In this document: positions 1,603-16,863 of the stretch, piece after piece
Layout: every line of letters begins with the position of its first letter
How positions within the stretch are numbered: the first letter of the stretch is position 1
Source: an uncultured virus (IMG/VR IMGVR_UViG_3300025133_000081)
Taxonomy: Duplodnaviria > Heunggongvirae > Uroviricota > Caudoviricetes > Crassvirales
Length of the DNA stretch: 20,000 nucleotides
Direction: 5' to 3' (one strand)
IMG/VR virus record: IMGVR_UViG_3300025133_000081
Translations under genes and position numbers: made by a program
The notes under the pieces: model-generated
What the model saw: only the letters and a program-made list of their open reading frames with translations
The model's database searches: none
Told to the model about the DNA's origin: nothing

Positions 1603-1921
1603 AAAAGGTGACAAGGTCATCTGTACTCAGACATCCATTATTGAAATCCCTATGTACCTATCTAAAAGAAGGATAGTAGTACATAGGGATCTTATTCTTG
1701 GAGAAGAGACTATTAAAGAGTCTATAAAAAGAGAAAAAAGCAATGGTAGAAAACCTTCTATCTTTGTCCCTATTCTAATAGTGAATAGGGTTTATAAAGG
1801 AGCTGATAATAAACAATATATTCAGTTTGAAAATGGGAGAAAAACTCCTATCAAATATCAGTTACATCATGTGCATTCAGCACATAAATTCAGATTGGTA
1901 AATGAACCAGATCGTAAATGA
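1586..1921 (+). CDS. hypothetical basic protein (111 aa)
   Basis: Overlapping ORF in the gene chain; N-terminal KKGDKVIC resembles starts of small SH3-like phage proteins (weak). Confidence 0.7.
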   Translation: MKQVIKKGDKVICTQTSIIEIPMYLSKRRIVVHRDLILGEETIKESIKREKSNGRKPSIFVPILIVNRVYKGADNKQYIQFENGRKTPIKYQLHHVHSAHKFRLVNEPDRK

Positions 1922-2135
1922 ATTTCATAATAGAATCACTCGAACTAAAAAAGGTTGGGTGTTGAAGAGAATTCGTAATAATTTTGCAATAGATAAATCA
2001 GAATTTAAGAAGACCTTTAAAGAAAGGAAAGAGCTTAAATTACTTAAACATCATGCAAATATTATGATGAGAAAAGAAGATAGTGGGTATACCGCTAAAA
2101 CTTATAAATGGAAAACAATTAAAATAATTGGATAA
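1902..2135 (+). CDS. hypothetical basic protein (77 aa)
   Basis: K/R-rich ORF; stop overlaps next start (TAATG). Confidence 0.65.
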   Translation: MNQIVNEFHNRITRTKKGWVLKRIRNNFAIDKSEFKKTFKERKELKLLKHHANIMMRKEDSGYTAKTYKWKTIKIIG

Positions 2136-2641
2136 TGGCTACAAAAACAGAAAAAACTATTGCGGATAGTATTCCGTTATATGACACAAATAAAATGCAA
2201 ACAATATTGAAAACTCTTTTAAATAAAGGGTGTTCAGTTATATTTAATAGTAATACAGGATCACATGCTTTTGAATTGGGAATACCTTATCAGATCGATA
2301 AAGTAACTCTTCAATCTAATAATATCTTACAGATAACAGCTCATCAAATAAGTGCTCCTGATAGAAATGGATTGTATAATGTAAATCCCAGTGATTTTAA
2401 GATACTTGGTATTCATAGAGGAGCTTTAGATAATGCTATAGATGGATTACAAACACAATTAACTACTTTAAAAGGTCTTCAAGAACGACTTGATGACTTA
2501 GGACTTTCTGATTCCAATTCTTACTTTGATCTACGTAAAGAGATCATTAGAAATATCTTAGATCGATCTGAACAGGGCGATATAGATAAAGAGACCAAAT
2601 TAAAATTAATTGTAGAATTAACTGATGCATTCGTAATGTGA
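2135..2641 (+). CDS. hypothetical protein with probable coiled-coil segment (168 aa)
   Basis: Heptad-like LDNAIDGLQTQLTTLKGLQERLDDL; followed by a terminator hairpin. Confidence 0.75.
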   Translation: MATKTEKTIADSIPLYDTNKMQTILKTLLNKGCSVIFNSNTGSHAFELGIPYQIDKVTLQSNNILQITAHQISAPDRNGLYNVNPSDFKILGIHRGALDNAIDGLQTQLTTLKGLQERLDDLGLSDSNSYFDLRKEIIRNILDRSEQGDIDKETKLKLIVELTDAFVM

Positions 2642-2644
2642 TCC

Positions 2645-2680
2645 AATGAGAGAGGGGAAGTTGTCTCCTCTCTCATTTTA
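2645..2680 (+). terminator. intrinsic terminator-like hairpin
   Basis: Perfect 11-bp inverted repeat AATGAGAGAGG (2645-2655) / CCTCTCTCATT (2667-2677) ending in a short T run, just after the 2641 stop. Confidence 0.75.
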
Positions 2681-2694
2681 CTAATATTTATACT

Positions 2695-2907
2695 ATGAGA
2701 CAGATTAAAGAAAAGAATTTCACTATTATCAAGTATTCCCAACTTTCTGAAGAAGAAAAGGATGCACATACTTGGATCGATACAGAAGAAATGTACACAT
2801 ATGTACCTTTTACGGTACTTGACACTCAAGATGATCCATTGAGTCAGAATTTATTGTTTGAAAATATTGTCCAATACGGAGAAACTGTACTAATATACAA
2901 AGACTGA
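2695..2907 (+). CDS. small acidic hypothetical protein (70 aa)
   Basis: ORF after the terminator; contains TWIDTEEMY and ends LIYKD, loosely like the downstream array members. Confidence 0.65.
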   Translation: MRQIKEKNFTIIKYSQLSEEEKDAHTWIDTEEMYTYVPFTVLDTQDDPLSQNLLFENIVQYGETVLIYKD

Positions 2908-3065
2908 TGTTAAAATTATTTAAAAAATTCACATTTAAACGATCTACCCTAAAGCATAGACTTCCAGCTAACTATAAATGGAAAGGTACATTAGGTAGAA
3001 ATCAAACTATTTTTCGTTTAGAAGATAAAAAAAGAAAAAAAGATGAAACAAAATTTGGAAAATAG
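2907..3065 (+). CDS. small basic hypothetical protein (52 aa, not in ORF track)
   Basis: ATG overlaps previous TGA (TGATG); reads MLKLFKKFTFKRSTLKHRLPANYKWKGTLGRNQTIFRLEDKKRKKDETKFGK-TAG and fills the gap. Confidence 0.5.
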   Translation: MLKLFKKFTFKRSTLKHRLPANYKWKGTLGRNQTIFRLEDKKRKKDETKFGK

Positions 3066-3561
3066 AGATGTTTTAGGTATATTTGTTAATTATCTGGGAA
3101 AAGATATCTTTGTAAACACTTATGGGATCACGATCGAACAATTTGATCTTGATTTCATAACAGCTGCTTATTATGAGAGAGCAGAAATATTTGCTCCAGA
3201 GGGTACAATTAATGTCTCTTTAATAGAATGTAGTGTAATTCTTAAGGAATTAAGTCATATTACCAAAGAAGATATTCAAACAGTAGCTGATATACTGGAA
3301 ACAGATTTTAATAATATTAAAGCAACTATAGGTTTGATCAGATTTGGTTTAGAAGAGGAAGTTCCTTTTACACTTATTAGAGAATTATCTAGACTTGGTT
3401 ATGCTGTTCCTTATTTTGGAAAATCTTTATTCAGTCTTGGAATAGCCATTAAAGAAGAAGACATAAAAAATATAATTGAAAAAGCAGATAAAAAAGATGA
3501 AGATATTATCAAAAGAGTGCAGTCCGCAGAGACAGAAACGGCTAATCCTGACCCCTGGTAA
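3043..3561 (+). CDS. hypothetical phage protein (172 aa)
   Basis: ILKELSHITKED and LSRLGYAVPYFGKSLFSLGIAI resemble, from memory, an uncharacterised Bacteroidota-phage family; not verified. Confidence 0.75.
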   Translation: MKQNLENRDVLGIFVNYLGKDIFVNTYGITIEQFDLDFITAAYYERAEIFAPEGTINVSLIECSVILKELSHITKEDIQTVADILETDFNNIKATIGLIRFGLEEEVPFTLIRELSRLGYAVPYFGKSLFSLGIAIKEEDIKNIIEKADKKDEDIIKRVQSAETETANPDPW

Positions 3562-3592
3562 AAGACTTCCAAAAAATTGGGAGCTAACTATA

Positions 3593-3721
3593 ATGACTGC
3601 TAATGCAATACATTTAGTAGATTCCATGTGTACTATCTATAGAATACCAACAAGTAATCGAAAAAAAGCATATTTTTGTGGAATGATAGTTATAAATGAT
3701 ATAAATTTATATAAACGTTAA
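3593..3721 (+). CDS. small xKR-array protein 1 (42 aa from ATG 3593)
   Basis: MTANAIHLVDSMCTIYRIPTSNRKKAYFCGMIVINDINLYKR; the track's TTG start at 3476 overlaps the upstream gene, so ATG 3593 is preferred. Confidence 0.55.
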   Translation: MTANAIHLVDSMCTIYRIPTSNRKKAYFCGMIVINDINLYKR

Positions 3722-3723
3722 AT

Positions 3724-3957
3724 ATGGAAGTTTTACAAAGAACAGTTCAGTTACTTTTACCACAGTATGAAGACGATAAAAATATACCTAATTATACTTC
3801 TATCATACATGAAAATTATCTATATATGGATACATATAATGAAGGTTCAGATAGTTATTTTATACATGATAATAAATCTTTTTTTGCCTCTCAAGAAAAA
3901 AATAAAGTATATGAAATTAAGGTAAAAAGAGAAAAATGTAAACGATATAAAAGATAA
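3724..3957 (+). CDS. small xKR-array protein 2 (77 aa)
   Basis: YLYMDTY motif; ends KRYKR-TAA. Confidence 0.7.
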   Translation: MEVLQRTVQLLLPQYEDDKNIPNYTSIIHENYLYMDTYNEGSDSYFIHDNKSFFASQEKNKVYEIKVKREKCKRYKR

Positions 3958-4130
3958 AATGGCAATAAGATCGAATTCTCCAATTACTATAGATGATACA
4001 AATAATTATCAGACCATAACTCCAACTAGAATTTATTGTGATACTTATGGGTGTACAGAAAGTTATAAGATAGGTAATGAATCATGTTTAATGATTATTA
4101 TAAAAAAAATATATAAAAGATAAAATGGCA
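3945..4130 (+). repeat. exact 20-bp direct repeat ATATAAAAGATAAAATGGCA at gene junctions (3945-3964 and 4111-4130)
   Basis: Both copies read directly; degenerate copies at about 3709, 4292, 4489, 4680 and 4898. Confidence 0.85.
3959..4123 (+). CDS. small xKR-array protein 3 (54 aa, not in ORF track)
   Basis: Translated by hand: MAIRSNSPITIDDTNNYQTITPTRIYCDTYGCTESYKIGNESCLMIIIKKIYKR-TAA. Confidence 0.7.
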   Translation: MAIRSNSPITIDDTNNYQTITPTRIYCDTYGCTESYKIGNESCLMIIIKKIYKR

Positions 4131-4304
4131 GTAATTACATCACATAAAATAGCTTTGGATTTTTTAGATGAAAAATATAATCAAAGTTATAATTTATTCA
4201 CTTTAAAAAAAATTTATTTTGATACTATGCATGGTCCTGAAAGATATAAACTTAAAGATAAATTCTCTATGGATGTATTAAATAAAAAAATATATAAGAG
4301 ATGA
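4125..4304 (+). CDS. small xKR-array protein 4 (59 aa, not in ORF track)
   Basis: Translated by hand: MAVITSHKIALDFLDEKYNQSYNLFTLKKIYFDTMHGPERYKLKDKFSMDVLNKKIYKR-TGA; ATGA overlap with the next ORF. Confidence 0.7.
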   Translation: MAVITSHKIALDFLDEKYNQSYNLFTLKKIYFDTMHGPERYKLKDKFSMDVLNKKIYKR

Positions 4305-4501
4305 AACGACAACACCCAAGATATATAACAATACGTGACGGTGCTACTGCTATGGTCACTAGTACAAAACTATTCTTTGATACTTATAATAAAAATGAAA
4401 ATGCTTTTTTAATATACATGCATACTAAAAAAGATCTTGCAGGATGTAATGCAATATCTAATATAGATATATATGAAAACCTTTATAGATATAAAAGATG
4501 A
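4301..4501 (+). CDS. small xKR-array protein 5 (66 aa)
   Basis: KLFFDTY motif; ends LYRYKR-TGA with ATGA overlap. Confidence 0.7.
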   Translation: MKRQHPRYITIRDGATAMVTSTKLFFDTYNKNENAFLIYMHTKKDLAGCNAISNIDIYENLYRYKR

Positions 4502-4692
4502 TAAATGAAAAAGGATTATACTTAAAAACAGCATTAAAATGTCCAGATGTAGTAATACTTATGTTTGCTGAAGGACAGGTTTATTGTCAAGATTATTATG
4601 GGGATTATCTTCCTTTTTCAGGTGATGATTCTACACATTGGGGAATAGTTACTATACGATATAAACATGCTCCTAGAATAGCAAAAAGATGA
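4498..4692 (+). CDS. small xKR-array protein 6 (64 aa)
   Basis: QVYCQDYY variant motif; ends RIAKR-TGA with ATGA overlap. Confidence 0.7.
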   Translation: MINEKGLYLKTALKCPDVVILMFAEGQVYCQDYYGDYLPFSGDDSTHWGIVTIRYKHAPRIAKR

Positions 4693-4910
4693 AAGAATCA
4701 ATTAATTATGCATTAAAGGTCTCTTCAAAAGAGAGGAAAAAGAATCAAATAAAAAACACTTCTTTATTACAAAGAAGTATGTTAGCTGCAGATCAAATAT
4801 TATATTTGGATAATTTTCATAATGAAAGATATTATATAGAAGGAGCAGATAGTATTACTACAATACTTTATTACGTAGAATTTAATAATTTAAAAATATG
4901 TAAAAGATGA
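4689..4910 (+). CDS. small xKR-array protein 7 (73 aa)
   Basis: ILYLDNF...ERYYI motif; ends KICKR-TGA overlapping the polA ATG. Confidence 0.7.
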   Translation: MKESINYALKVSSKERKKNQIKNTSLLQRSMLAADQILYLDNFHNERYYIEGADSITTILYYVEFNNLKICKR

Positions 4911-6805
4911 TACATCTTATTGTAGATGATGTTGGTCTGAGTTTTATGCATGATCTAATACATGATGCAGAAATCTTACAGATAGATACAGAAACTACAG
5001 GATTTGATCCACATTCAGACAAGATCTTAACTTTACAGATCGGTACAGAAGATGGAGAACATCAATATGTTCTTGATGCTTCTAAGGTGGATATGGGTCA
5101 TAAAGATATTAAAGATCTACTAGAAGAAAAGATCTTGATATTTCAAAATGCTAAATTTGATCTTCAGTTTTTATTTAAGATCGGAATTTGGCCTACTAAA
5201 ATAAGAGATACATTCATTGCTGAATGTGTTCTTACTACAGGATTAAAAATAAGAAGTCTAGGATTAGATGCCTTAGCTTTTAAATACTGTGATGAGGTAC
5301 TTGATAAAAGTATCAGAGCTAATATACATAAAGAAGGTCTTACTGATAGAGTAGTAAGATATGCTGCAGATGATGTAAAATTCCTCAACGCAATATATGA
5401 GGCTCAACAAAAAAAGATCCAATCAGAAAAATTGGAAAGAGTATTATCTTTAGAAGAACAATATGTAAAAGTACTTGCTTATGCTGAATTCTGCGGATTT
5501 GGAATTAATACAGAAGCTTGGAAAAAGAATACAGATATTTTTAAAGATAAATTAGAGATACATAAAGAGAGAGTAACCGAATGGATACATGAAAATCTCT
5601 CACAATATAGAGATACTCAATTGGATATGTTCAGTACAGAGAATAAACTTAATATAAGTATAGACTCTGCTAAAGACATGACAGGAGTATTTCAAGACCT
5701 TGGAATAGATACACAGATAACTTTCAAGGGAAAGACAAAAGACACGATCGAAGCAAAACATCTGAAGAAGTTTAAAAAAACTACTCCACTCGTAGAAATT
5801 TATATGGAGTATTCAGGTGTTCGAAAGCTAGTAACCACTTATGGTGAAAGCTTTTTAGATTATGTCAACGACACGACAGGGAGATTGCACAGTAGTTATT
5901 GGCAAATTCTAAATACTGGTCGAATTTCTTCTTCTGATCCTAATTTACAGAATATACCTGCTGACGAGGAGATAAGAGGCTGTTTTATAGCAGAAGAAGA
6001 TAACACTTTAATCGTAGCTGATTATTCAGCACAAGAAACAAGAGTACTAGCAGATATGGCGAAAGAGCAGAACTATATAGAATTTTTTCTAAATGGTGAT
6101 GGAGATTCGCATTCTATGGTAGCTTCTAGAATGTTTACAGAGATTGAAGGAAAACCAGTAGTCGTGTCAGGAACACAGAATACAGACTTAAGACAAATCG
6201 GTAAAATACTATCATTTCAGATAGCCTATGGAGCGTCTGCATGGTCTGTAAAGGACTCTTTCAATATAAGTGAAGAACGTGCTCAGAAATTCATAGATGC
6301 TTACTTAGACTCGTTCCCTGACCTTAAGAAATACTTTGAGAAAAGGAAAAGAGAAGTGATCGCTAAAGGATATCTGGTAACTGATCCCATTACCCTACGT
6401 AGAATTTATATGGGGGGGTTTGAGCGGTTTCAGGAAGTAGCTAAAGAGAGAAGAGCAATATATGATGCTGGTGAAAGACCTTCTAAGGAACTTACCAGAG
6501 AATTCTATAGTATGAAAGGAGCATTTGAAAGAGCTGCTCTGAATTACCCTATACAGTCTGTATCAGCTAGTATGATGAAACTAGCAGGAGTAAGATTGTT
6601 TGATTGGATTTTGAAGAAAGGATATCAGAACAAGGTTAAGATCGTATCATTTATACATGACGAGACCTGTTTAGAATGTCCTAAGGACATGGCTCAGGAA
6701 GTTGCTGATGCCGTACAGGACTTTATGGAGAATTCTGCAAAGGTCTTCTGTAAGACCGTCCCTATTCCTGCAAAACCCAATATAACTAAATTCTGGAAGA
6801 AATGA
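4907..6805 (+). CDS. polA: family A DNA polymerase (3'-5' exonuclease + polymerase, no 5'-3' exonuclease)
   Basis: ExoI DTET, ExoII QNAKFD, ExoIII YAADD; TGRISSSDPNLQNIP; motif A ADYSAQE; motif B RQIGKILSFQIAYG; motif C FIHDE. Confidence 0.97.
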   Translation: MIHLIVDDVGLSFMHDLIHDAEILQIDTETTGFDPHSDKILTLQIGTEDGEHQYVLDASKVDMGHKDIKDLLEEKILIFQNAKFDLQFLFKIGIWPTKIRDTFIAECVLTTGLKIRSLGLDALAFKYCDEVLDKSIRANIHKEGLTDRVVRYAADDVKFLNAIYEAQQKKIQSEKLERVLSLEEQYVKVLAYAEFCGFGINTEAWKKNTDIFKDKLEIHKERVTEWIHENLSQYRDTQLDMFSTENKLNISIDSAKDMTGVFQDLGIDTQITFKGKTKDTIEAKHLKKFKKTTPLVEIYMEYSGVRKLVTTYGESFLDYVNDTTGRLHSSYWQILNTGRISSSDPNLQNIPADEEIRGCFIAEEDNTLIVADYSAQETRVLADMAKEQNYIEFFLNGDGDSHSMVASRMFTEIEGKPVVVSGTQNTDLRQIGKILSFQIAYGASAWSVKDSFNISEERAQKFIDAYLDSFPDLKKYFEKRKREVIAKGYLVTDPITLRRIYMGGFERFQEVAKERRAIYDAGERPSKELTREFYSMKGAFERAALNYPIQSVSASMMKLAGVRLFDWILKKGYQNKVKIVSFIHDETCLECPKDMAQEVADAVQDFMENSAKVFCKTVPIPAKPNITKFWKK

Positions 6806-7107
6806 TTCCTAGATTTCGTGTTAAAAGTTTATCCAGTGGGGATGAATATGATGTTGTAAAAATAGAATATAGTTTAGTAGATGAAAATAGTTGGTCTGTA
6901 GAATATTTAGAACATGGTTATGTTAATAACGTAGTTATGTCAAGTAAACATATTCTAAAAGAATTTACAGGTGTATATGATAAGAATAATAAACCTATTT
7001 ATACGTATGATACGTTAAAAGATAAAAAAGGTAAAGTATTTACATATAATTATATGAAACCAGCTATTCTTGAAACTTGTGAAAAGATAGATGATGAAGG
7101 ATCCTAG
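6802..7107 (+). CDS. YopX-like phage protein
   Basis: N-terminal MIPRFRV and KEFTGVYDKNNKPIYTYD match the YopX pattern (xxTGxxDKNGxxIYxxD). Confidence 0.75.
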   Translation: MIPRFRVKSLSSGDEYDVVKIEYSLVDENSWSVEYLEHGYVNNVVMSSKHILKEFTGVYDKNNKPIYTYDTLKDKKGKVFTYNYMKPAILETCEKIDDEGS

Positions 7108-8287
7108 AGAAAGGATACAAGAAGAAGCATTTGCACAATGGAAAGACAAAGGAGAAAAAGGAACAATACAGGCAATTACTGGTATTGGGAAAACATTCAT
7201 AGCTTTAAAAGCTGTAGCAGAAATGGATCCTAATGACAGAATACTGTTTTTAGCAGAAACACGACAAAGAGAAAGAGACTTTAAGAAAGAAATAGATAAA
7301 TTCAGTGACCTATATGGAGTAGATTTCACTGAATACAATATAGAAATAATGTGCTATCAAAGTGCTTATAAAAGAAGAGGTATGACCCATGATCTTGTTA
7401 TCGCAGATGAGATCCATGATTCATTGACACCTAAATACTCCAGATATTATGCGAATAATACATATTATAAGATAATGGGGCTTTCAGCTACTATTGATGA
7501 TGGTGAAATATGGTTCTCTGAGGATCGTAGTACTACCAAACTCAAGATGTTATCTGAAATTGCTCCTATATGTTATATATATAATATAGAAGATGGGCAA
7601 CGAGAGGGTACTACACGACCATTAGATGTATTTGTTTTACATCATAGGTTAGGTACAGTTCGTAATGTATTGGCAGGAACCAAGAAAAAACCGTTTATGA
7701 CCACTGAACAAGGGTCATATGAGTATTGGGACAAGCGATTCAAACGATCATTCTTTGTTGAACCCGATAAGAGGGAACTACAAATGGCTCTGGCATCAAG
7801 AAAAAGAGCTGCTATGTTATATACCCTACCATCTAAAGTAGTAATGGTAAATAAACTCCTAGAGAATCTCAAAGGAAAAACTCTGATCTTTGGAAACGAT
7901 CTAAAAGCTTTGGAACAAATTACAAGTAATGTTGTAAGGGCTGCAAGAAAAGGTGAAAAAGTTAAAGAGATTGAAAAAAGAAATGAGAGGATCCGAGAAC
8001 AATTTGATAAAGGAGAAATAGATGTAATAGCTTCATTTAAGATGCTCAAACAAGGAGCAAATTTAAAAAATGTAGATAATGTTATAGTAATGTCCTATTA
8101 TGGAAAACAAAGAGATCTTTTACAAAGAATAGGTCGTCTTCGTAAAGAAGGTAATAAGATAGGTACTGTAATAATACCCGTAACAGTAGGAACTCAGGAA
8201 GTGAAATGGTTTGAATCAATGACAGACGGTATATCATTGAATACAATTCCATGTCTCTCCCTGGATGAACTTATATCAAAACTATAA
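7091..8287 (+). CDS. superfamily 2 DExH helicase
   Basis: Motif I AITGIGKT, II DEIH, III SAT, V MLKQGANL, VI QRIGR. Confidence 0.93.
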   Translation: MMKDPRERIQEEAFAQWKDKGEKGTIQAITGIGKTFIALKAVAEMDPNDRILFLAETRQRERDFKKEIDKFSDLYGVDFTEYNIEIMCYQSAYKRRGMTHDLVIADEIHDSLTPKYSRYYANNTYYKIMGLSATIDDGEIWFSEDRSTTKLKMLSEIAPICYIYNIEDGQREGTTRPLDVFVLHHRLGTVRNVLAGTKKKPFMTTEQGSYEYWDKRFKRSFFVEPDKRELQMALASRKRAAMLYTLPSKVVMVNKLLENLKGKTLIFGNDLKALEQITSNVVRAARKGEKVKEIEKRNERIREQFDKGEIDVIASFKMLKQGANLKNVDNVIVMSYYGKQRDLLQRIGRLRKEGNKIGTVIIPVTVGTQEVKWFESMTDGISLNTIPCLSLDELISKL

Positions 8288-13149: not shown

Positions 13150-14292
13150 ATGAAAATAAATTCAAAAAAAGCAGATCAGATCTTTCATGATGTAGGTAAT
13201 ACTAGATTTACATGGTTCAAAGCCAGTAATTGTATGGGGGCTAAATCTATTTTAGATAAAAATGATTATTCTGATCCAGAAGGAAATTGTTCAGCAAATG
13301 ATGCTAAGGCTTTTATGAAGAATATAAAAGAATTAGGTCCTTTTATGACACAGGCAGAAGAGATCTTTGGAAAAGGAAATGTTACTATAACTCAATTGGA
13401 CATGTATCCAACTGGAAAGATTATCCGTATAGATAGTTTACAGGTACAATGTCTGATTCCAGAATTAACCATACGTAATGAGTATGATACTACTCATACT
13501 ATAAGAGATCTTGTAGTAGTATTTAAAGCTAATAGAGACGAAAATAAAAGATGGGTCCTCTATGATATGTGTGGATATAGGTTAAATAGAAGTGCAGGTG
13601 AAGTTATCAGAGGCTATGTTCATTCGCATCTTCATACAGGTAGAGGACATAACTCTGGTAATGGTTTCTGTTTAGGAGATTCTGAAATGAATGATATCAT
13701 GTCAGGGTGTGATAAATATGCAGAAGATGAACTTGATTTTGTCTTTAACTATGTACATACCTTTGCATGTACTGAATCCATTGATGGAGTTCCTTATATT
13801 GAATTACAGGAAGTGATCGATGTAACACAGACCTTAGGTCATTTGGATGTAGGTCATATGGAGATCAACAATACAGATGTTATACAGACAATAGAATCTT
13901 TAACAACTAAAAATACTTTTCCAACTGCTGGAAATGTAGATCAAAATGGACGAGAGAACTTACATGTTACTATAGATACTGCTTTTATGACAAATATCAA
14001 AAAGTATGCTCCTAAACATTTATGTCAAGCTTCTTTATTAACTTTAGATAATTATACAGACCATGTTAAAAGATATGCAGGATATGCAAGTGCTGATCCA
14101 TTTTCTTTAGCATATCCAATTATGTTTAATAAGGTACTATATGAAAAACAAGGAATATATTTACTTCCAGATGAAGAAGAGTATGTAGTAAATTCACAGA
14201 AAGGAGAGGGAGAGAATATAATGACCATGACAACTGCTAATACATTAGCAACAAGATGTGTAAAAACAATGAACGCAATAATTAATTACTAA
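13150..14292 (+). CDS. putative prokaryotic E2 (UBC-fold) conjugating enzyme
   Basis: YVH158SHL...GNGFC174LG matches the HPH/N...xCLG active-site signature of prokaryotic E2 families; flanked by Ubl and JAB genes. Confidence 0.7.
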   Translation: MKINSKKADQIFHDVGNTRFTWFKASNCMGAKSILDKNDYSDPEGNCSANDAKAFMKNIKELGPFMTQAEEIFGKGNVTITQLDMYPTGKIIRIDSLQVQCLIPELTIRNEYDTTHTIRDLVVVFKANRDENKRWVLYDMCGYRLNRSAGEVIRGYVHSHLHTGRGHNSGNGFCLGDSEMNDIMSGCDKYAEDELDFVFNYVHTFACTESIDGVPYIELQEVIDVTQTLGHLDVGHMEINNTDVIQTIESLTTKNTFPTAGNVDQNGRENLHVTIDTAFMTNIKKYAPKHLCQASLLTLDNYTDHVKRYAGYASADPFSLAYPIMFNKVLYEKQGIYLLPDEEEYVVNSQKGEGENIMTMTTANTLATRCVKTMNAIINY

Positions 14293-15474
14293 ATGAGTAC
14301 AAAAGGACAATTTAAGGCATCTTTGCCTGTAAAAGAGATGGATACTAATTTCACTCTTATCGTAGATAAGGATCTACAAGCAGAAATAGCATATTTACAT
14401 GCACAACATAAGGATGTTGAATGGTGTGGAATGTTACATTATGAAATAGAAGAGGGTACATTGGCTGATCCAGAAAAATTGGTAGTAAGAGCTAGGAAGA
14501 TCTATGTGATCGATGTAGGAAGTGCTGCTTATACAGAAGGAGAAGTTGATGCAGGAATCATTGATTTCTATGAAGAATTCCCTGAATGTGAGAACATGAA
14601 AGTAGGATTTATTCATACTCATCACGGTATGAATTGCTTCTTTTCAGGAACAGACAAGCAAGAATTACATGATAATACTCAATTCTACAATTATTACTTA
14701 TCATTGATTGTAAATCATGAGAGTTCTTATTGTGCAAAGATAGCATGTATTGCAGAAGGAAAAGAATCTTACATCAAGTGGGACGATGGTAAGAAGATCA
14801 AAATGGGTGCAAACAACAAAACAATGTTTACATTTGATGCTGACATTCAATTTGATGTACCAGAAAGTTTCAAAGATCGTCATGCTTTCTTAAAGCCTGC
14901 ACCTTCTCCTACAACTACCTATGGAAGTAGTTATGGAAGTGGTTACGGGTATAGTAGTGAAAGTTGGGGGAGACCTAGTGTAAGTGTTGCCTCAACTTCA
15001 ACCAGTAGCAAATCCGAAAAGAAAGAACTTAAACAATATACAATGTTTGAGTTGGAAAGATTGGATAATGATGAGATCTTTGATCTTTTCAAGATAAATG
15101 TTACTAAACAAAAACTAGATCAAACTCTTGCCATGATCTATAATGGTGGAATGAGAACTGGTTTCTTGACAAAATCTGTAATTTTACAGACCATTGAAAA
15201 ATTTGATAAGATGCATGCAGATAATGTAGTTGCTGCAGCAGACAAATTAGTTGATGAAGTATACGGTATTATTCATAAAGAGTTTAATGTATATACAGTA
15301 GATGATGCATATAAGGCAATCGTAATGGCTGCTATTGCTGATCATCTATGTGATCTTAATAAAGATCTTTTACTAGAGATCAATTCTAAGGAGGATATTC
15401 TTACTCCTTTGATCTCAGAAGAGCTTTACAAGATATATATGTCAGACGTACAAACAACAGCTAGCGGATGGTAG
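14293..15474 (+). CDS. JAB/MPN+ (JAMM) metallopeptidase with long C-terminal extension
   Basis: E43 (VEWCG) plus H108-T-H110-x7-S118-xx-D121 (GFIHTHHGMNCFFSGTD), a complete JAMM motif. Confidence 0.9.
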   Translation: MSTKGQFKASLPVKEMDTNFTLIVDKDLQAEIAYLHAQHKDVEWCGMLHYEIEEGTLADPEKLVVRARKIYVIDVGSAAYTEGEVDAGIIDFYEEFPECENMKVGFIHTHHGMNCFFSGTDKQELHDNTQFYNYYLSLIVNHESSYCAKIACIAEGKESYIKWDDGKKIKMGANNKTMFTFDADIQFDVPESFKDRHAFLKPAPSPTTTYGSSYGSGYGYSSESWGRPSVSVASTSTSSKSEKKELKQYTMFELERLDNDEIFDLFKINVTKQKLDQTLAMIYNGGMRTGFLTKSVILQTIEKFDKMHADNVVAAADKLVDEVYGIIHKEFNVYTVDDAYKAIVMAAIADHLCDLNKDLLLEINSKEDILTPLISEELYKIYMSDVQTTASGW

Positions 15475-16211
15475 AAGAAAAGAAAGAATCAGTAGCAAAG
15501 AAATTTGCTCGCTTCAAAGACAGTGAATGGTTTGGAGTTAAACACAAAGCAGTAATCGGTGGAGTAGGGGGAATCGGGTCATGGTTCTCCCTCCTCTTCA
15601 TGAGGACTGGAGATCATACATGTGTAGTATATGATATGGATACCATAGAAGATACTAATATGGCAGGACAACTTTATTCAGACCAAGATATTGGTAAGAA
15701 AAAAGTTGATGCTATGCAAGAACATGTAAAACAATTTGCAGGAGCAGATGTAAAGTTTCATGCAATAAATGATAAGATCACTGCTGAGAATTGTCATAGA
15801 GCACCTTTAATGATCTCATGTTTTGATAACATGGAAGCAAGAAAGGTATTCTTTGAGCATTGGAAAGCAGATTTCGCAGAATTTCCAGACAAGGATCCTT
15901 CTGAATATTTATTTGTAGATGGACGGATGAATGCAGAGAATTTTCAATTATTCTTTGTAACTCCTGAAAATGCAAAACATTATGAAGAAAATTTCTTATA
16001 TGGAGATGGTGATGTACCAGATCTTGCATGTAGTTTCAAAGCTACATCACATACAGCAGCAATGTTGTCTGCTAAAATGGTAACAGGTATAACTAATTGG
16101 ACAGGTAATAATAAAACAGGAGTTGACTCTAGAGTTGTTCCTTATTTTTATCAATATGACCTGGCCTTTATGATGGAAAGAGTATATGAATATCCAAGGG
16201 ACATTATATAA
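15468..16211 (+). CDS. ThiF/MoeB/E1-family adenylating enzyme
   Basis: N-terminal ARF, GGVGGIGS nucleotide-binding loop, YDMDTIEDTNMAGQ, IGKKKV, CFDNMEAR, VDGR; candidate catalytic C188 (DLACS). Confidence 0.92.
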   Translation: MVEEKKESVAKKFARFKDSEWFGVKHKAVIGGVGGIGSWFSLLFMRTGDHTCVVYDMDTIEDTNMAGQLYSDQDIGKKKVDAMQEHVKQFAGADVKFHAINDKITAENCHRAPLMISCFDNMEARKVFFEHWKADFAEFPDKDPSEYLFVDGRMNAENFQLFFVTPENAKHYEENFLYGDGDVPDLACSFKATSHTAAMLSAKMVTGITNWTGNNKTGVDSRVVPYFYQYDLAFMMERVYEYPRDII

Positions 16212-16863
16212 CGGAAGTATGACAAAAAGTAGATTAGATTCTACTGTAATGTCATTATCTGCTACAAGATATAATCCAGTAAAAATAGAGTTTAATAGAG
16301 ATGCAAAAATTATTCCTTTATTTGCTTTATCAGATACACCAGTAATATGGAGAGATGATTTTAATGATGATAGGTTTCATGAGACACGTAAAACAACTTA
16401 TAAAGATATGATACAATGTGGTTTACAAAATAAAAACATAAGTAAGATCATGTTATATAATAGTCGTATAAGTGTTTATTGTCAACATGGTTGTATATTT
16501 AATAATGCTTCTACTGTTCTATATACTATAATGACTCCTAATACTGCAGCAAATGCTTATATGATTCAAAAAGAAAATCGATTGAACAAAGCAATTGGTT
16601 CAAATAGTTTTCAATTACCTAGAGGAAGTTTTGTAGGATATAATGATCGTATAAGAGTTGCAACTGGTGAATACCATGGATTATATTCTCCTGTAAAACA
16701 ATTTGCAAAACAATATGGATTAGAAGTTCATCCTGTAACTTTTCGTAACTTAGTTAAAAATCCTTTACCTGTTCCAAAAGATTTTGAAGAAATTGCAGCT
16801 CAGCCTGAATATCTGAGAAATTTAGTACATGAAGAGATAAAGAAAGCTAAACAGATAATTTAA
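16186..16863 (+). CDS. hypothetical protein coupled to the E1 gene (225 aa)
   Basis: Overlaps the E1 3' end by 26 nt; TAATG overlap with the next gene; no RING or other motif recognised. Confidence 0.75.
   Translation: MNIQGTLYNGSMTKSRLDSTVMSLSATRYNPVKIEFNRDAKIIPLFALSDTPVIWRDDFNDDRFHETRKTTYKDMIQCGLQNKNISKIMLYNSRISVYCQHGCIFNNASTVLYTIMTPNTAANAYMIQKENRLNKAIGSNSFQLPRGSFVGYNDRIRVATGEYHGLYSPVKQFAKQYGLEVHPVTFRNLVKNPLPVPKDFEEIAAQPEYLRNLVHEEIKKAKQII

What the first reader, a model, noticed from the sequence alone, without database searches (positions are those of the whole stretch)
3593..4910. Tandem array of seven divergent small paralogous ORFs, all ending in xKR-stop, coupled to polA
Seen: seven head-to-tail ORFs of 42-77 aa ending LYKR, RYKR, IYKR, IYKR, RYKR, IAKR, ICKR. 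Shared internal motif: IHLVDSM, YLYMDTY, RIYCDTY, KIYFDTM, KLFFDTY, QVYCQDY, ILYLDNF, often followed by Y/F-x-I/L 5-8 residues later. Otherwise very divergent; the stretch is visibly more AT-rich than its flanks. Two members are below the ORF-track cut-off. Inference: an expanded, fast-diversifying microprotein family, like phage anti-defence or host-takeover arrays, where the conserved motif and KR tail could dock onto a common partner. I do not recognise this family.
Basis: partly seen in the sequence, partly recalled or inferred. Interest (0 to 1): 0.8.

Follow-up and report, generated by a model that had tools for sequence, protein, structure and literature searches.

The report
KR-tailed small gene array before polA
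An uncultured marine phage has a row of seven tiny genes wedged directly in front of its DNA polymerase gene; six are old, diverged copies of one protein seen nowhere else, and what they do is unknown.

Summary
The array is real. Seven + strand ORFs (42-77 aa) tile 3593-4910 without gaps, every one ends in Lys-Arg-stop, and the last overlaps the polA start (ATGA). Codon usage matches the phage's long genes. ORFs cover 99.7% of the stretch, against 3% on average in shuffles. Paralogy holds for six of the seven. With the tail removed, profile-profile scores for ORFs 2-7 beat 98-100 of 100 column shuffles. ORF1 shares only the tail. In 11 of 11 relatives (polA 62-64% identical) the gap between the conserved upstream gene and polA is about 440 nt, against 2,265 nt here. 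The gene homologous to 3043-3561, where examined, overlaps the polA start. So the array is a 1.3-kb lineage-specific insertion. A profile search of 1.84 billion proteins found only the six query proteins themselves. Pfam, PHROGs, NCBIfam and PDB gave nothing, and AlphaFold models were unusable (pLDDT 52). No expression data exist. My best reading is a dispensable accessory family of small, basic, Tyr-rich proteins, made together with the replication proteins by chained translation and probably aimed at host targets. That function is inferred, not shown. This is a new orphan family within a known kind of thing, blocks of short orphan genes in phages. Interest is modest.

The parts
3593..3721 (+). 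ORF1, 42 aa, ends LYKR. It is probably coding, but family membership is unproven because it shares only the tail.
   Evidence: Codon-model log ratio is 0.49/0.45 per codon, like the long genes. A GGGAG lies 9 nt upstream of the ATG. Tail-less hhalign against ORFs 2-5 scores 7.4 and is reached by 61 of 100 shuffles. The longer 74-aa reading from ATG 3497 is not favoured: in the overlap the 172-aa frame scores 0.41/0.32 and the ORF1 frame -0.18/0.18.
3724..3957 (+). ORF2, 77 aa, ends RYKR. Family member of the 'long' subtype, paired with ORF5.
   Evidence: Smith-Waterman against ORF5 gives z 5.5. Leave-one-out HMM rank is 46 of 3001. hhalign of (3,4) against (2,5) scores 20.3, reached by 0 of 100 shuffles.
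3959..4123 (+). ORF3, 54 aa, ends IYKR. Family member and most recent duplicate, paired with ORF4.
   Evidence: Smith-Waterman against ORF4 gives z 14.1. Leave-one-out HMM rank is 1 of 2999. A variant P0007 (C43Y, I47K) occurs in one other contig.
4125..4304 (+). ORF4, 59 aa, ends IYKR. Family member.
   Evidence: Leave-one-out HMM rank is 1 of 3001. A 28-29 nt junction repeat is shared with ORF3 at 82-90% identity.
4301..4501 (+). ORF5, 66 aa, ends RYKR. Family member.
   Evidence: Smith-Waterman gives z 5.5 against ORF2 and 3.3 against ORF3. Leave-one-out HMM rank is 11 of 3000.
4498..4692 (+). ORF6, 64 aa, ends IAKR. Divergent family member.
   Evidence: Tail-less hhalign of ORFs 2-5 against ORF6 scores 15.3, reached by 0 of 100 shuffles. 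The motif PSSM scores 12.0, reached by 3.5% of 115 natural decoys, shuffle p 0.10.
4689..4910 (+). ORF7, 73 aa, ends ICKR. Divergent family member whose stop overlaps the polA start (ATGA).
   Evidence: Tail-less hhalign of ORFs 2-5 against ORF7 scores 16.9, reached by 2 of 100 shuffles. The motif PSSM scores 14.75, above all 115 natural decoys.
4907..6805 (+). Family A DNA polymerase with a 3'-5' exonuclease domain. It is the right-hand boundary of the insertion and the last link of the translation chain.
   Evidence: Pfam DNA_pol_A E 3.9e-72 and DNA_pol_A_exo1 E 5.1e-21. Relatives are 62-64% identical over the full length.
3043..3561 (+). Conserved 172-aa gene of unknown function, the left-hand boundary of the insertion. 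In 7 relatives examined, its 141-142 aa homologue overlaps the polA start by 44 nt.
   Evidence: tblastn at 27-29% identity, E 1e-7 to 1e-9, at 3 of 8 searched loci (L003, L004, L005). ORF lists. Alignment A4.
2650..2674 (+). Terminator-like hairpin followed by a T run after the 168-aa gene. It is the probable end of the preceding transcription unit, so the array would be transcribed with 2695-3561 and polA.
   Evidence: It is the only terminator-like site in 1900-7200. An equivalent hairpin lies at the same place in relative L011, 4567-4593.

Best explanation
The array is a lineage-specific insertion of real protein-coding genes into the replication operon of an uncultured marine phage whose replication proteins are closest to those of crAss-like phages. 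Six of the genes (ORFs 2-7) descend by repeated tandem duplication from one orphan gene. ORF1 shares only the C-terminal tail. I infer that they are transcribed with the upstream genes and polA, and that they are translated as a chain, because each stop overlaps or lies within 2 nt of the next start. The products would be small (5-9 kDa), soluble, basic (pI 7.8-9.6), Tyr-rich proteins. Their conserved part is a block of about 24 residues (hydrophobic-Tyr-x-Asp-Thr-Tyr, a short turn, then Tyr-x-Ile) plus a [hydrophobic]-x-Lys-Arg C-terminus. Relatives replicate without them, so they are accessory. My committed guess is that they are made early, alongside the replisome, and act by binding host components (host takeover or counter-defence), with the diverged copies widening the range of targets. 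What is shown: the ORFs, their coding character, the paralogy of six, the insertion, and the lack of relatives. What is inferred: expression, folding, and any binding or target.
For: Coding. ORFs of 42 aa or more cover 99.7% of the stretch, against a mean of 3% and a maximum of 38.7% in 2000 shuffles, and none lies on the reverse strand. The in-frame codon model gives 0.29-0.58 per codon, against 0.36-0.59 for 18 long genes. An alternative-frame 52-aa ORF scores -0.25.
Paralogy. Smith-Waterman z is 14.1 (ORFs 3-4), 5.5 (2-5) and 3.3 (3-5). Tail-less hhalign scores: (3,4) against (2,5) 20.3, (3,4) against (6,7) 15.7, (2-5) against (6,7) 18.3, and (2-5) against ORF6 15.3. Each of these is reached by 0 of 100 column shuffles. 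(2-5) against ORF7 scores 16.9, reached by 2 of 100.
Tail. KR ends occur in 7 of 7 array ORFs and 0 of 23 others. One Arg is CGT rather than AGA, and three junctions do not overlap, so the Arg is not forced by the ATGA overlap.
Accessory status. In 11 of 11 relatives with upstream flank, the conserved 161-163 aa gene and polA are 440-444 nt apart, against 2,265 nt here. In the 7 relatives where I listed that interval, a 141-142 aa gene fills it. The family profile finds nothing in their six-frame translations (best E 0.41).
Operon. The only terminator-like site lies upstream at 2650 and is conserved in L011.
Soluble and basic character.
Against: There is no evidence of transcription or translation. 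No RNA run holds the stretch (a blank, not evidence). No orthologous array exists, so purifying or diversifying selection cannot be measured. All copies found are identical except for one two-residue variant. AlphaFold2 on the six-sequence alignment gave pLDDT 52 and pTM 0.26, so a defined fold is not shown. Leave-one-out HMMs place ORFs 6 and 7 only at ranks 177 and 195 of about 3000, and they are not significant without the tail. Unrelated control proteins reached z 3.4-4.5 against ORF1, so weak pairwise scores are unreliable. Nothing links the proteins to any host target or defence system, no regulator gene of the aca type lies nearby, and the host is unknown.
Confidence: 0.4

Rival explanations
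1. The junction acts as a nucleic-acid cassette. On this view the conserved end (consensus ATATAAAAGATRA) matters mainly as RNA and DNA. It would be an A-rich, Shine-Dalgarno-free start context plus a stop/start overlap that hands ribosomes from ORF to ORF down to polA, setting polA output. It would also be a short repeat at which copies are gained and lost by unequal recombination. The Lys-Arg tail is then largely a by-product, and the proteins matter little.
For: All seven junctions are overlaps or 1-2 nt spacers, and none of ORFs 2-7 or polA has a Shine-Dalgarno sequence. The motif with 0-1 mismatch occurs at 5 array junctions and only once elsewhere in 20 kb. Junction repeats of 18-29 nt are 82-93% identical while the gene bodies are at most 36% identical as protein. 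In relatives polA also starts inside the upstream gene, so coupling is ancestral. A at -3 occurs at 6 of 7 downstream starts, which is a positive determinant in Bacteroidetes (PMC6847099, abstract). C-terminal Lys/Arg is generally favoured in bacteria (PMC7246954, abstract). An earlier scan note describes such a dual-use repeat in another phage (e1-5340958, unchecked).
Against: The internal 24-residue block is conserved without the tail, which a purely junctional function does not explain. The Arg is kept through a CGT codon and through different spacings. Only about 3 of 23 other starts in the window show a similar AAAAG-ATG context, so the phage does not generally need it. With GC3 of 0.09-0.14, identical codons are expected from protein conservation alone. 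There is no relative in which gain or loss at the repeat can be seen.
Confidence: 0.2
2. The proteins serve the phage itself. They would be small basic proteins that bind DNA or the replisome (for example polymerase accessory or DNA-coating proteins) and are made in fixed proportion with polA.
For: They lie immediately upstream of polA and are translationally chained to it, within a block of replication genes. pI is 7.8-9.6 with a basic C-terminus.
Against: Eleven of 11 relatives with a 62-64% identical polA and the same replication genes lack the array. Seven diverged copies are not expected for a single replisome role. No DNA-binding family was matched.
Confidence: 0.12
3. The ORFs are proto-genes or debris. 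An AT-rich insertion was tandemly duplicated, and its ORFs are open by recent origin and drift rather than by selection for a product.
For: It has the lowest GC in the window (0.22-0.25). There are no homologues anywhere. The structure prediction is of low confidence. It is known from a single phage genotype.
Against: The copies have diverged to 12-36% identity, yet all seven frames remain open. In this composition, shuffles give at most 3 ORFs of 42 aa or more and 3% mean coverage. Codon usage is like that of real genes. A motif block and the tail are selectively retained.
Confidence: 0.12
4. The ORFs are substrate peptides. They would be precursors of modified peptides, or tags whose C-terminus is activated by the phage's ThiF-type E1-like enzyme and trimmed by its JAB peptidase (14293-16211).
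For: It is a tandem array of short, diverged peptides with a constant C-terminus, and an E1-like and a JAB gene lie in the same window.
Against: The ThiF-like gene is present (49-50% identity) in 3 of 3 array-less relatives searched. The tail is Lys-Arg, not the Gly or Gly-Gly of E1 substrates (recalled, not tested). No maturation enzyme lies next to the array, and the conserved part is central and C-terminal rather than an N-terminal leader.
Confidence: 0.03

Closest known systems
Blocks of short orphan genes in crAss-like phages (Yutin et al. 2021, PMC7886860; passage in section 7 read)
   Same: It is a run of short genes with no detectable homologues elsewhere, in a phage whose replication proteins are most similar to those of crAss-like phages. 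The authors suspected anti-CRISPR roles but could not predict any; the function here is equally unknown.
   Different: Here six of the genes are paralogues of one another, share a fixed Lys-Arg end, and are chained to polA without spacers. Membership of this phage in the crAss-like assemblage is not established, because the window holds no structural genes.
Hyperplastic regions of T4-type phages with promoter/stem-loop (PeSL) cassettes (Arbiol et al. 2010, PMC2839356; abstract read)
   Same: Non-essential small orphan genes are inserted between conserved genes, and short repeats at the gene boundaries could mediate gain and loss.
   Different: There is no promoter or stem-loop between the genes: spacers are 0-2 nt, promoter-like sites number 26 against 30.8 expected, and there is no terminator inside the array. 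The repeat here is the coding end plus the next start.
Anti-CRISPR and other anti-defence gene clusters of phages
   Same: Small proteins lie in a row, are absent from close relatives, and have no wider homologues.
   Different: Those clusters usually hold unrelated proteins next to an HTH regulator (recalled). Here the genes are paralogues, no HTH gene is nearby, and no activity or similarity to a known anti-defence protein was found.
Arrays noted earlier in this scan on other DNA (e1-5340958, chained small genes with a dual-use junction repeat; e1-5753036, 14 paralogues with a common VW end; e1-5322437, nine paralogues upstream of a phage DNA polymerase). These are AI notes and were not checked by me.
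   Same: They are tandem diverged small paralogues in uncultured phages. One has a shared C-terminal peptide, one has a junction that is at once C-terminus, stop and next start, and one sits before the polymerase gene.
   Different: They are different protein families on different DNA; searching earlier findings by sequence found no look-alike. The present family has no relatives at all, whereas two of those are widespread.
General C-terminal Lys/Arg bias of bacterial proteins (Weber et al. 2020, PMC7246954; abstract read)
   Same: Lys and Arg are favoured as last residues, and Lys raises protein levels. This could help explain a KR end.
   Different: A proteome-wide bias does not give 7 of 7 against 0 of 23 within one window.

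Membership tests
One paralogous family comprising all seven ORFs | ORFs 2-7 are similar to each other beyond composition, without help from the tail | tested here: met
   In tail-less hhalign, 4 of the 5 comparisons among ORFs 2-7 are reached by 0 of 100 column shuffles and 1 by 2 of 100. Smith-Waterman z is 14.1, 5.5 and 3.3 for the best pairs.
One paralogous family comprising all seven ORFs | ORF1 is similar to the others beyond the last four residues | tested here: not met
   hhalign scores 7.4, reached by 61 of 100 shuffles. The motif PSSM gives p 0.47. Tail-less leave-one-out HMM rank is 1975 of 2981. The 74-aa extended form is also not significant.
Translationally coupled operon | The stop of each gene overlaps or abuts the start of the next | tested here: met
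   Four ATGA overlaps and spacers of 1, 1 and 2 nt. Coupling itself, meaning ribosome hand-over, cannot be tested here.
Anti-CRISPR / anti-defence cluster | Similarity to a known anti-defence protein | tested here: not met
   No match at the default thresholds in Pfam, PHROGs, NCBIfam or PDB sequences. Relaxed scans gave only chance-level rows: Pfam E 0.028 or worse, PHROGs E 0.1, PDB E 0.93. No dedicated anti-defence library was on hand.
Anti-CRISPR / anti-defence cluster | An adjacent HTH regulator (aca-type) gene | tested here: not met
   None of the 30 window ORFs scanned matched an HTH family.
Anti-CRISPR / anti-defence cluster | Inhibits a defence system | not testable with these tools
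   This needs the host and a bench assay.
T4-type hyperplastic region with PeSL cassettes | A sigma-70-type promoter plus a terminator stem-loop between the small genes | tested here: not met
   Junctions are 0-2 nt. Promoter-like sites number 26 against 30.8 expected. The single terminator-like site lies outside the array, at 2650.
Short-gene blocks of crAss-like phages | The phage belongs to the crAss-like assemblage | tested here: inconclusive
   polA and the DnaB-like helicase have their best hits (30-38% identity) mostly in crAss-like Bacteroides phages, with Cellulophaga and Leptolyngbya phages also hit. No signature structural genes lie in the window.
E1/JAB-handled tags (ubiquitin-like) | Co-occurrence with the E1-like gene, and a C-terminal Gly | tested here: not met
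   The ThiF-like gene is present in 3 of 3 array-less relatives. The ends are Lys-Arg.
RiPP precursor arrays | A conserved leader with a variable core, next to maturation enzymes | tested here: not met
   The conserved parts are central and C-terminal. The neighbours are replication genes.

The most novel reading that the evidence does not exclude
The invariant free Lys-Arg C-terminus, sitting on a conserved Tyr-rich hairpin, is a common plug that docks all seven proteins into one partner (a host enzyme or a phage replication protein), while the diverged bodies give each copy a different cargo or specificity. The array would then be a set of interchangeable adaptors or decoys, made in a graded series by chained translation ahead of polA.
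Probability: 0.1. Interest if true: 0.6.

Novelty: new member of a known kind. Interest (0 to 1): 0.3.

Why it matters
If the proteins are made, this is a self-contained example of how a phage builds a small gene family from nothing recognisable. It involves insertion exactly at an overlapping gene junction, serial duplication, retention of one short motif and a two-residue tail, and complete translational chaining to an essential gene. It adds one more case to a recurring pattern: tail-sharing or junction-sharing arrays of very small proteins next to phage replication genes. That pattern may deserve a systematic survey. On its own, in one uncultured phage with no host and no relatives, it settles no open question.

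Tried and rejected
1. Whole genome: none is held.
I used polA-based loci and a DNA pattern instead.
3. Two-junction DNA pattern in viral contigs: 48 loci matched. Only the window's own contig has 2 or more small KR-ended ORFs; the other 47 have 0-1.
4. Structure: the AlphaFold2 model of the family has pLDDT 52 and that of the 172-aa neighbour pLDDT 40. Both are too poor, so no fold search was run.
5. ESM Atlas: no usable hit for ORF4. For ORF2 the best feature score is 0.86 and the Atlas model has pLDDT 0.44, which is within the noise.
6. RNA evidence: no RNA holder is listed. Laying four DNA runs gave only short identical pieces and no joint or variant across the array.
7. Rfam: best E 0.15, eukaryotic families, chance.
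8. An eighth member? The 70-aa ORF 2695-2907 (ends LIYKD) is unrelated, with all z below 1 and profile score 0.5.
9. An origin of the units from the polA 5' end or the 3' end of the 172-aa gene: DNA z is at most 1.3, like the controls. ORF2 against the polA N-terminus gives z 3.2, which I discount because unrelated controls reach z 4.5.
10. A longer ORF1 from ATG 3497: rejected by the codon model and hhalign.
11. A link to the ThiF/JAB genes: rejected.
12. Alternative genetic code: not needed, since polA and the other long genes are intact under table 11 and end where their relatives end.
14. Literature: searches (terms listed in those calls) turned up no description of a KR-tailed array. This is not a proof of absence.
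15. It was corrected.
Full report
WHAT IS THERE. On the + strand, seven ORFs tile 3593-4910: 3593-3721 (42 aa), 3724-3957 (77), 3959-4123 (54), 4125-4304 (59), 4301-4501 (66), 4498-4692 (64) and 4689-4910 (73). They end LYKR, RYKR, IYKR, IYKR, RYKR, IAKR and ICKR. The junctions are spacers of 2, 1 and 1 nt followed by four ATGA overlaps, the last with the start of a family A DNA polymerase at 4907 (Pfam DNA_pol_A E 3.9e-72). GC falls to 0.22-0.255 in windows over 3601-4600, against 0.28-0.31 on either side. The rest of the window is a phage replication module. It holds a YopX-like gene, an SF2 helicase, a DnaB-like helicase, a Sak4-like ATPase, a primase, a RusA-like resolvase, JAB and ThiF-like genes, an exonuclease, a MazG-like gene and a ribonucleotide reductase. 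All long genes are intact under table 11.

ARE THEY GENES? ORFs of 42 aa or more cover 99.7% of the stretch (8 ORFs, one of them an alternative-frame ORF). In 2000 shuffles the mean coverage is 3.0%, the maximum 38.7%, and there are at most 3 such ORFs. The reverse strand has none. A codon model trained on 18 long genes of the window prefers the annotated frame of each of the seven by 0.29-0.58 (against frame +1) and 0.21-0.48 (against frame +2) per codon. The long genes themselves score 0.36-0.59. The alternative-frame 52-aa ORF (3767-3925) scores -0.25. The copies have diverged to 12-36% identity. Seven frames still open in DNA this AT-rich therefore argue for selection against stops.

ARE THEY PARALOGUES? 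Pairwise Smith-Waterman scores against shuffles are strong for ORFs 3-4 (z 14.1), 2-5 (5.5) and 3-5 (3.3). They are weak (z 2.4-2.6) for 2-3, 4-5, 4-7 and 6-7, and absent for ORF1. Controls matter here. Unrelated proteins of the window reached z 4.5 and 3.4 against ORF1, so z of 2-3 cannot be trusted. Leave-one-out HMMs against 3000 shuffles rank ORF3 and ORF4 first, ORF5 11th and ORF2 46th, but ORFs 1, 6 and 7 only 188th, 177th and 195th. Without the last three residues those three are not significant.

It gives the following scores:
- (3,4) against (2,5): 20.3, reached by 0 of 100 shuffles.
- (3,4) against (6,7): 15.7, reached by 0 of 100.
- (2-5) against (6,7): 18.3, reached by 0 of 100.
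- (2-5) against ORF6: 15.3, reached by 0 of 100.
- (2-5) against ORF7: 16.9, reached by 2 of 100.
- (2-5) against ORF1: 7.4, reached by 61 of 100.

It does not find the string in ORF1 (p 0.47). My verdict is a six-member family with three subtypes (3/4, 2/5 and 6/7), plus ORF1, which shares only the tail. A longer ORF1 from ATG 3497 is not supported.

THE TAIL AND THE JUNCTION. KR ends occur in 7 of 7 array ORFs and 0 of 23 other ORFs in the window; 2 of those 23 end in two basic residues (Fisher p 4.9e-7). At the DNA level the junctions share a consensus ATATAAAAGATRA. With 0-1 mismatch it occurs at five array junctions and only once elsewhere, at 3488-3500. Junction repeats of 18-29 nt are 82-93% identical. 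The Arg is not forced by the ATGA overlap. Three junctions do not overlap, and one Arg is CGT rather than AGA. With GC3 of 0.09-0.14, identical codons are what protein conservation alone would give. The data therefore cannot separate a protein-level tail from an RNA or DNA signal. Both may hold, because the last codons are also positions -6 to -1 of the next start. Lys and Arg are generally favoured as last residues in bacteria (PMC7246954, abstract). A at -3 favours initiation in Bacteroidetes, which lack Shine-Dalgarno sites (PMC6847099, abstract). Six of the 7 downstream starts have A at -3, and none has a Shine-Dalgarno sequence.

CONTEXT AND RELATIVES. Searching with polA gave 9 loci in viral contigs and 6 in metagenome contigs. 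Two (L001, L010) are identical to the window. Two (L002, L009; 70-72% identity) start inside polA. Eleven have upstream flank (polA 62-64% identical, GC 0.37-0.43 in the five computed). L004 and L012 are both from 16,593-bp contigs and may be one record filed twice. In all 11 the conserved 161-163 aa gene (homologue of 2135-2641) ends 440-444 nt before polA, against 2,265 nt here. I listed that interval in 7 of them (L003, L008, L011-L015). There it holds a 141-142 aa homologue of 3043-3561 that overlaps the polA start by 44 nt. The array is therefore a 1.3-kb insertion exactly between that gene and polA.

Two further insertions are absent from the relatives: the 70-aa and 52-aa ORFs at 2695-3065, and the YopX-like gene at 6802-7107. 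A terminator-like hairpin at 2650-2674 is the only one in 1900-7200. It has a counterpart at the same place in L011, which suggests one transcription unit from about 2690 through the array into polA. Promoter-like sites are not enriched (26 against 30.8 expected).

IS THE FAMILY FOUND ELSEWHERE? A profile of ORFs 2-7 found only the six query proteins in the word-indexed search of 5.8 billion clusters. The same held in an exhaustive HMMER pass over 1.84 billion representatives (6 hits at E up to 0.001, all self). Each protein occurs in at most 4 contigs, the longest 72,647 bp. ORF3 has one variant (C43Y, I47K) in one contig. Pfam, PHROGs and NCBIfam gave nothing at the default thresholds, and relaxed scans of these and of PDB sequences gave only chance-level matches. 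The profile also finds nothing in the six-frame translations of the relatives. A two-junction DNA pattern matched 48 viral loci, of which only the window's own contig has two or more small KR-ended ORFs. Six DNA runs, five of them labelled marine metagenome, from six studies hold all or part of the stretch, and none is RNA. The four runs that I laid gave only short identical pieces. Both AlphaFold2 models were unusable (pLDDT 52 and 40), and the Atlas gave no lead.

HOW IT MOST LIKELY WORKS. What is shown: real coding character, six paralogues, a fixed KR end, a gap-free chain into polA, and absence from relatives. What is inferred is the following. The genes are transcribed with the replication operon. 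They are translated one after another, and give small, soluble, basic (pI 7.8-9.6), Tyr-rich (9.0% against 4.6%) proteins. They are accessory, because relatives replicate without them. By analogy with other early, dispensable, orphan small genes of phages, they probably bind host components. I give this whole reading 0.4; the shown part alone I would put near 0.85. The rivals are:
- The junction acts as a coupling and recombination cassette, and the proteins are of little importance (0.2).
- The proteins have a phage-directed DNA or replisome role (0.12).
- They are proto-genes without function (0.12).
- They are substrates of the ThiF/JAB genes or RiPP-like precursors (0.03). This is weakened because 3 of 3 array-less relatives keep the ThiF-like gene.

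COMPARISON WITH WHAT IS KNOWN. The nearest described thing is the 'blocks of short genes' without outside homologues in crAss-like phages, which were suspected but not shown to be anti-CRISPRs (PMC7886860, passage read). The polA and DnaB-like proteins of this phage have their best hits (30-38%) mostly in such phages, but membership is not established. The hyperplastic regions of T4-type phages share the idea of boundary repeats driving gain and loss (PMC2839356, abstract). Their defining promoter/stem-loop cassettes are absent here. Earlier notes of this scan report similar arrays on other DNA: a chain with a dual-use junction repeat, a 14-copy array with a common VW end, and nine paralogues before a phage polymerase. 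They are unchecked AI notes and concern different families (no sequence look-alike). Even so, this scan has met this kind of thing before.

NOVELTY AND LIMITS. This is a new orphan family within a known kind of phage feature. It is known from one phage genotype, and it has no host, no expression data, no orthologues and no usable structure model. A specialist would not be surprised, so interest is modest (0.3).

Noticed in passing
window 3488-3500: The 3' part of the 172-aa gene contains a copy of the array's junction motif with one mismatch. It includes an out-of-frame ATG at 3497 that opens the ORF1 frame. This ATG lies within about 9 nt of the position where, by protein alignment A4, polA starts inside the homologous gene of relatives. 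It may be a relic of the ancestral polA start, but codon statistics do not support translation from it.
   Followed up: partly
window 3043-3561; L003 4023-4448; L008 5619-6044: The conserved gene just upstream of polA ends in an acidic tail closed by an aromatic residue (…PDPW here; …DDQPF, …EEMQPF and …ADLAF in relatives). From memory, this recalls the polymerase-binding tails of SSB and T7 gp2.5. There is no Pfam, PDB or phage-database match, and the AlphaFold model has pLDDT 40.
   Followed up: partly
window 2695-3065 and 6802-7107: Two further insertions relative to the 62-64% relatives: a 70-aa plus a basic 52-aa ORF before the 172-aa gene, and a YopX-like 101-aa gene between polA and the helicase. 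Both are joined to their neighbours by overlaps. The boundaries around polA look like a hot spot for accessory cargo.
   Followed up: partly
window 13150-16863: A four-gene block holds a JAB-domain protein (14293-15474) and a ThiF/E1-like protein (15468-16211), flanked by two unknown proteins. The ThiF-like gene is conserved at 49-50% identity in 3 of 3 relatives searched. It is possibly a ubiquitin-like conjugation or peptide-activation module of the phage.
   Followed up: partly
L006 8955-9960 and 12281-13095: In relative L006 the SF2 helicase gene and the Sak4-like gene each match in two pieces, separated by about 1.0 kb and 0.8 kb. This suggests inserted introns, inteins or homing-endonuclease genes.
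   Followed up: no
window 2650-2674; L011 4567-4593: A G+C-rich terminator-like hairpin lies after the 161-168 aa gene and is conserved in position between the window and a relative. It marks the start of the polA transcription unit.
   Followed up: partly
window 3959-4123 (protein P0007): One other contig (27,195 bp) carries ORF3 with two changes five residues apart (C43Y, I47K). The other five family proteins are recorded only in identical form. This could be a local burst of change or an assembly error.
   Followed up: no
window 4489-4506 and 4898-4915: The start region of ORF6 and that of polA share 16 of 18 nt, including ATGATA (Met-Ile). This hints that at least one duplication carried the polA start junction with it.
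   Followed up: no
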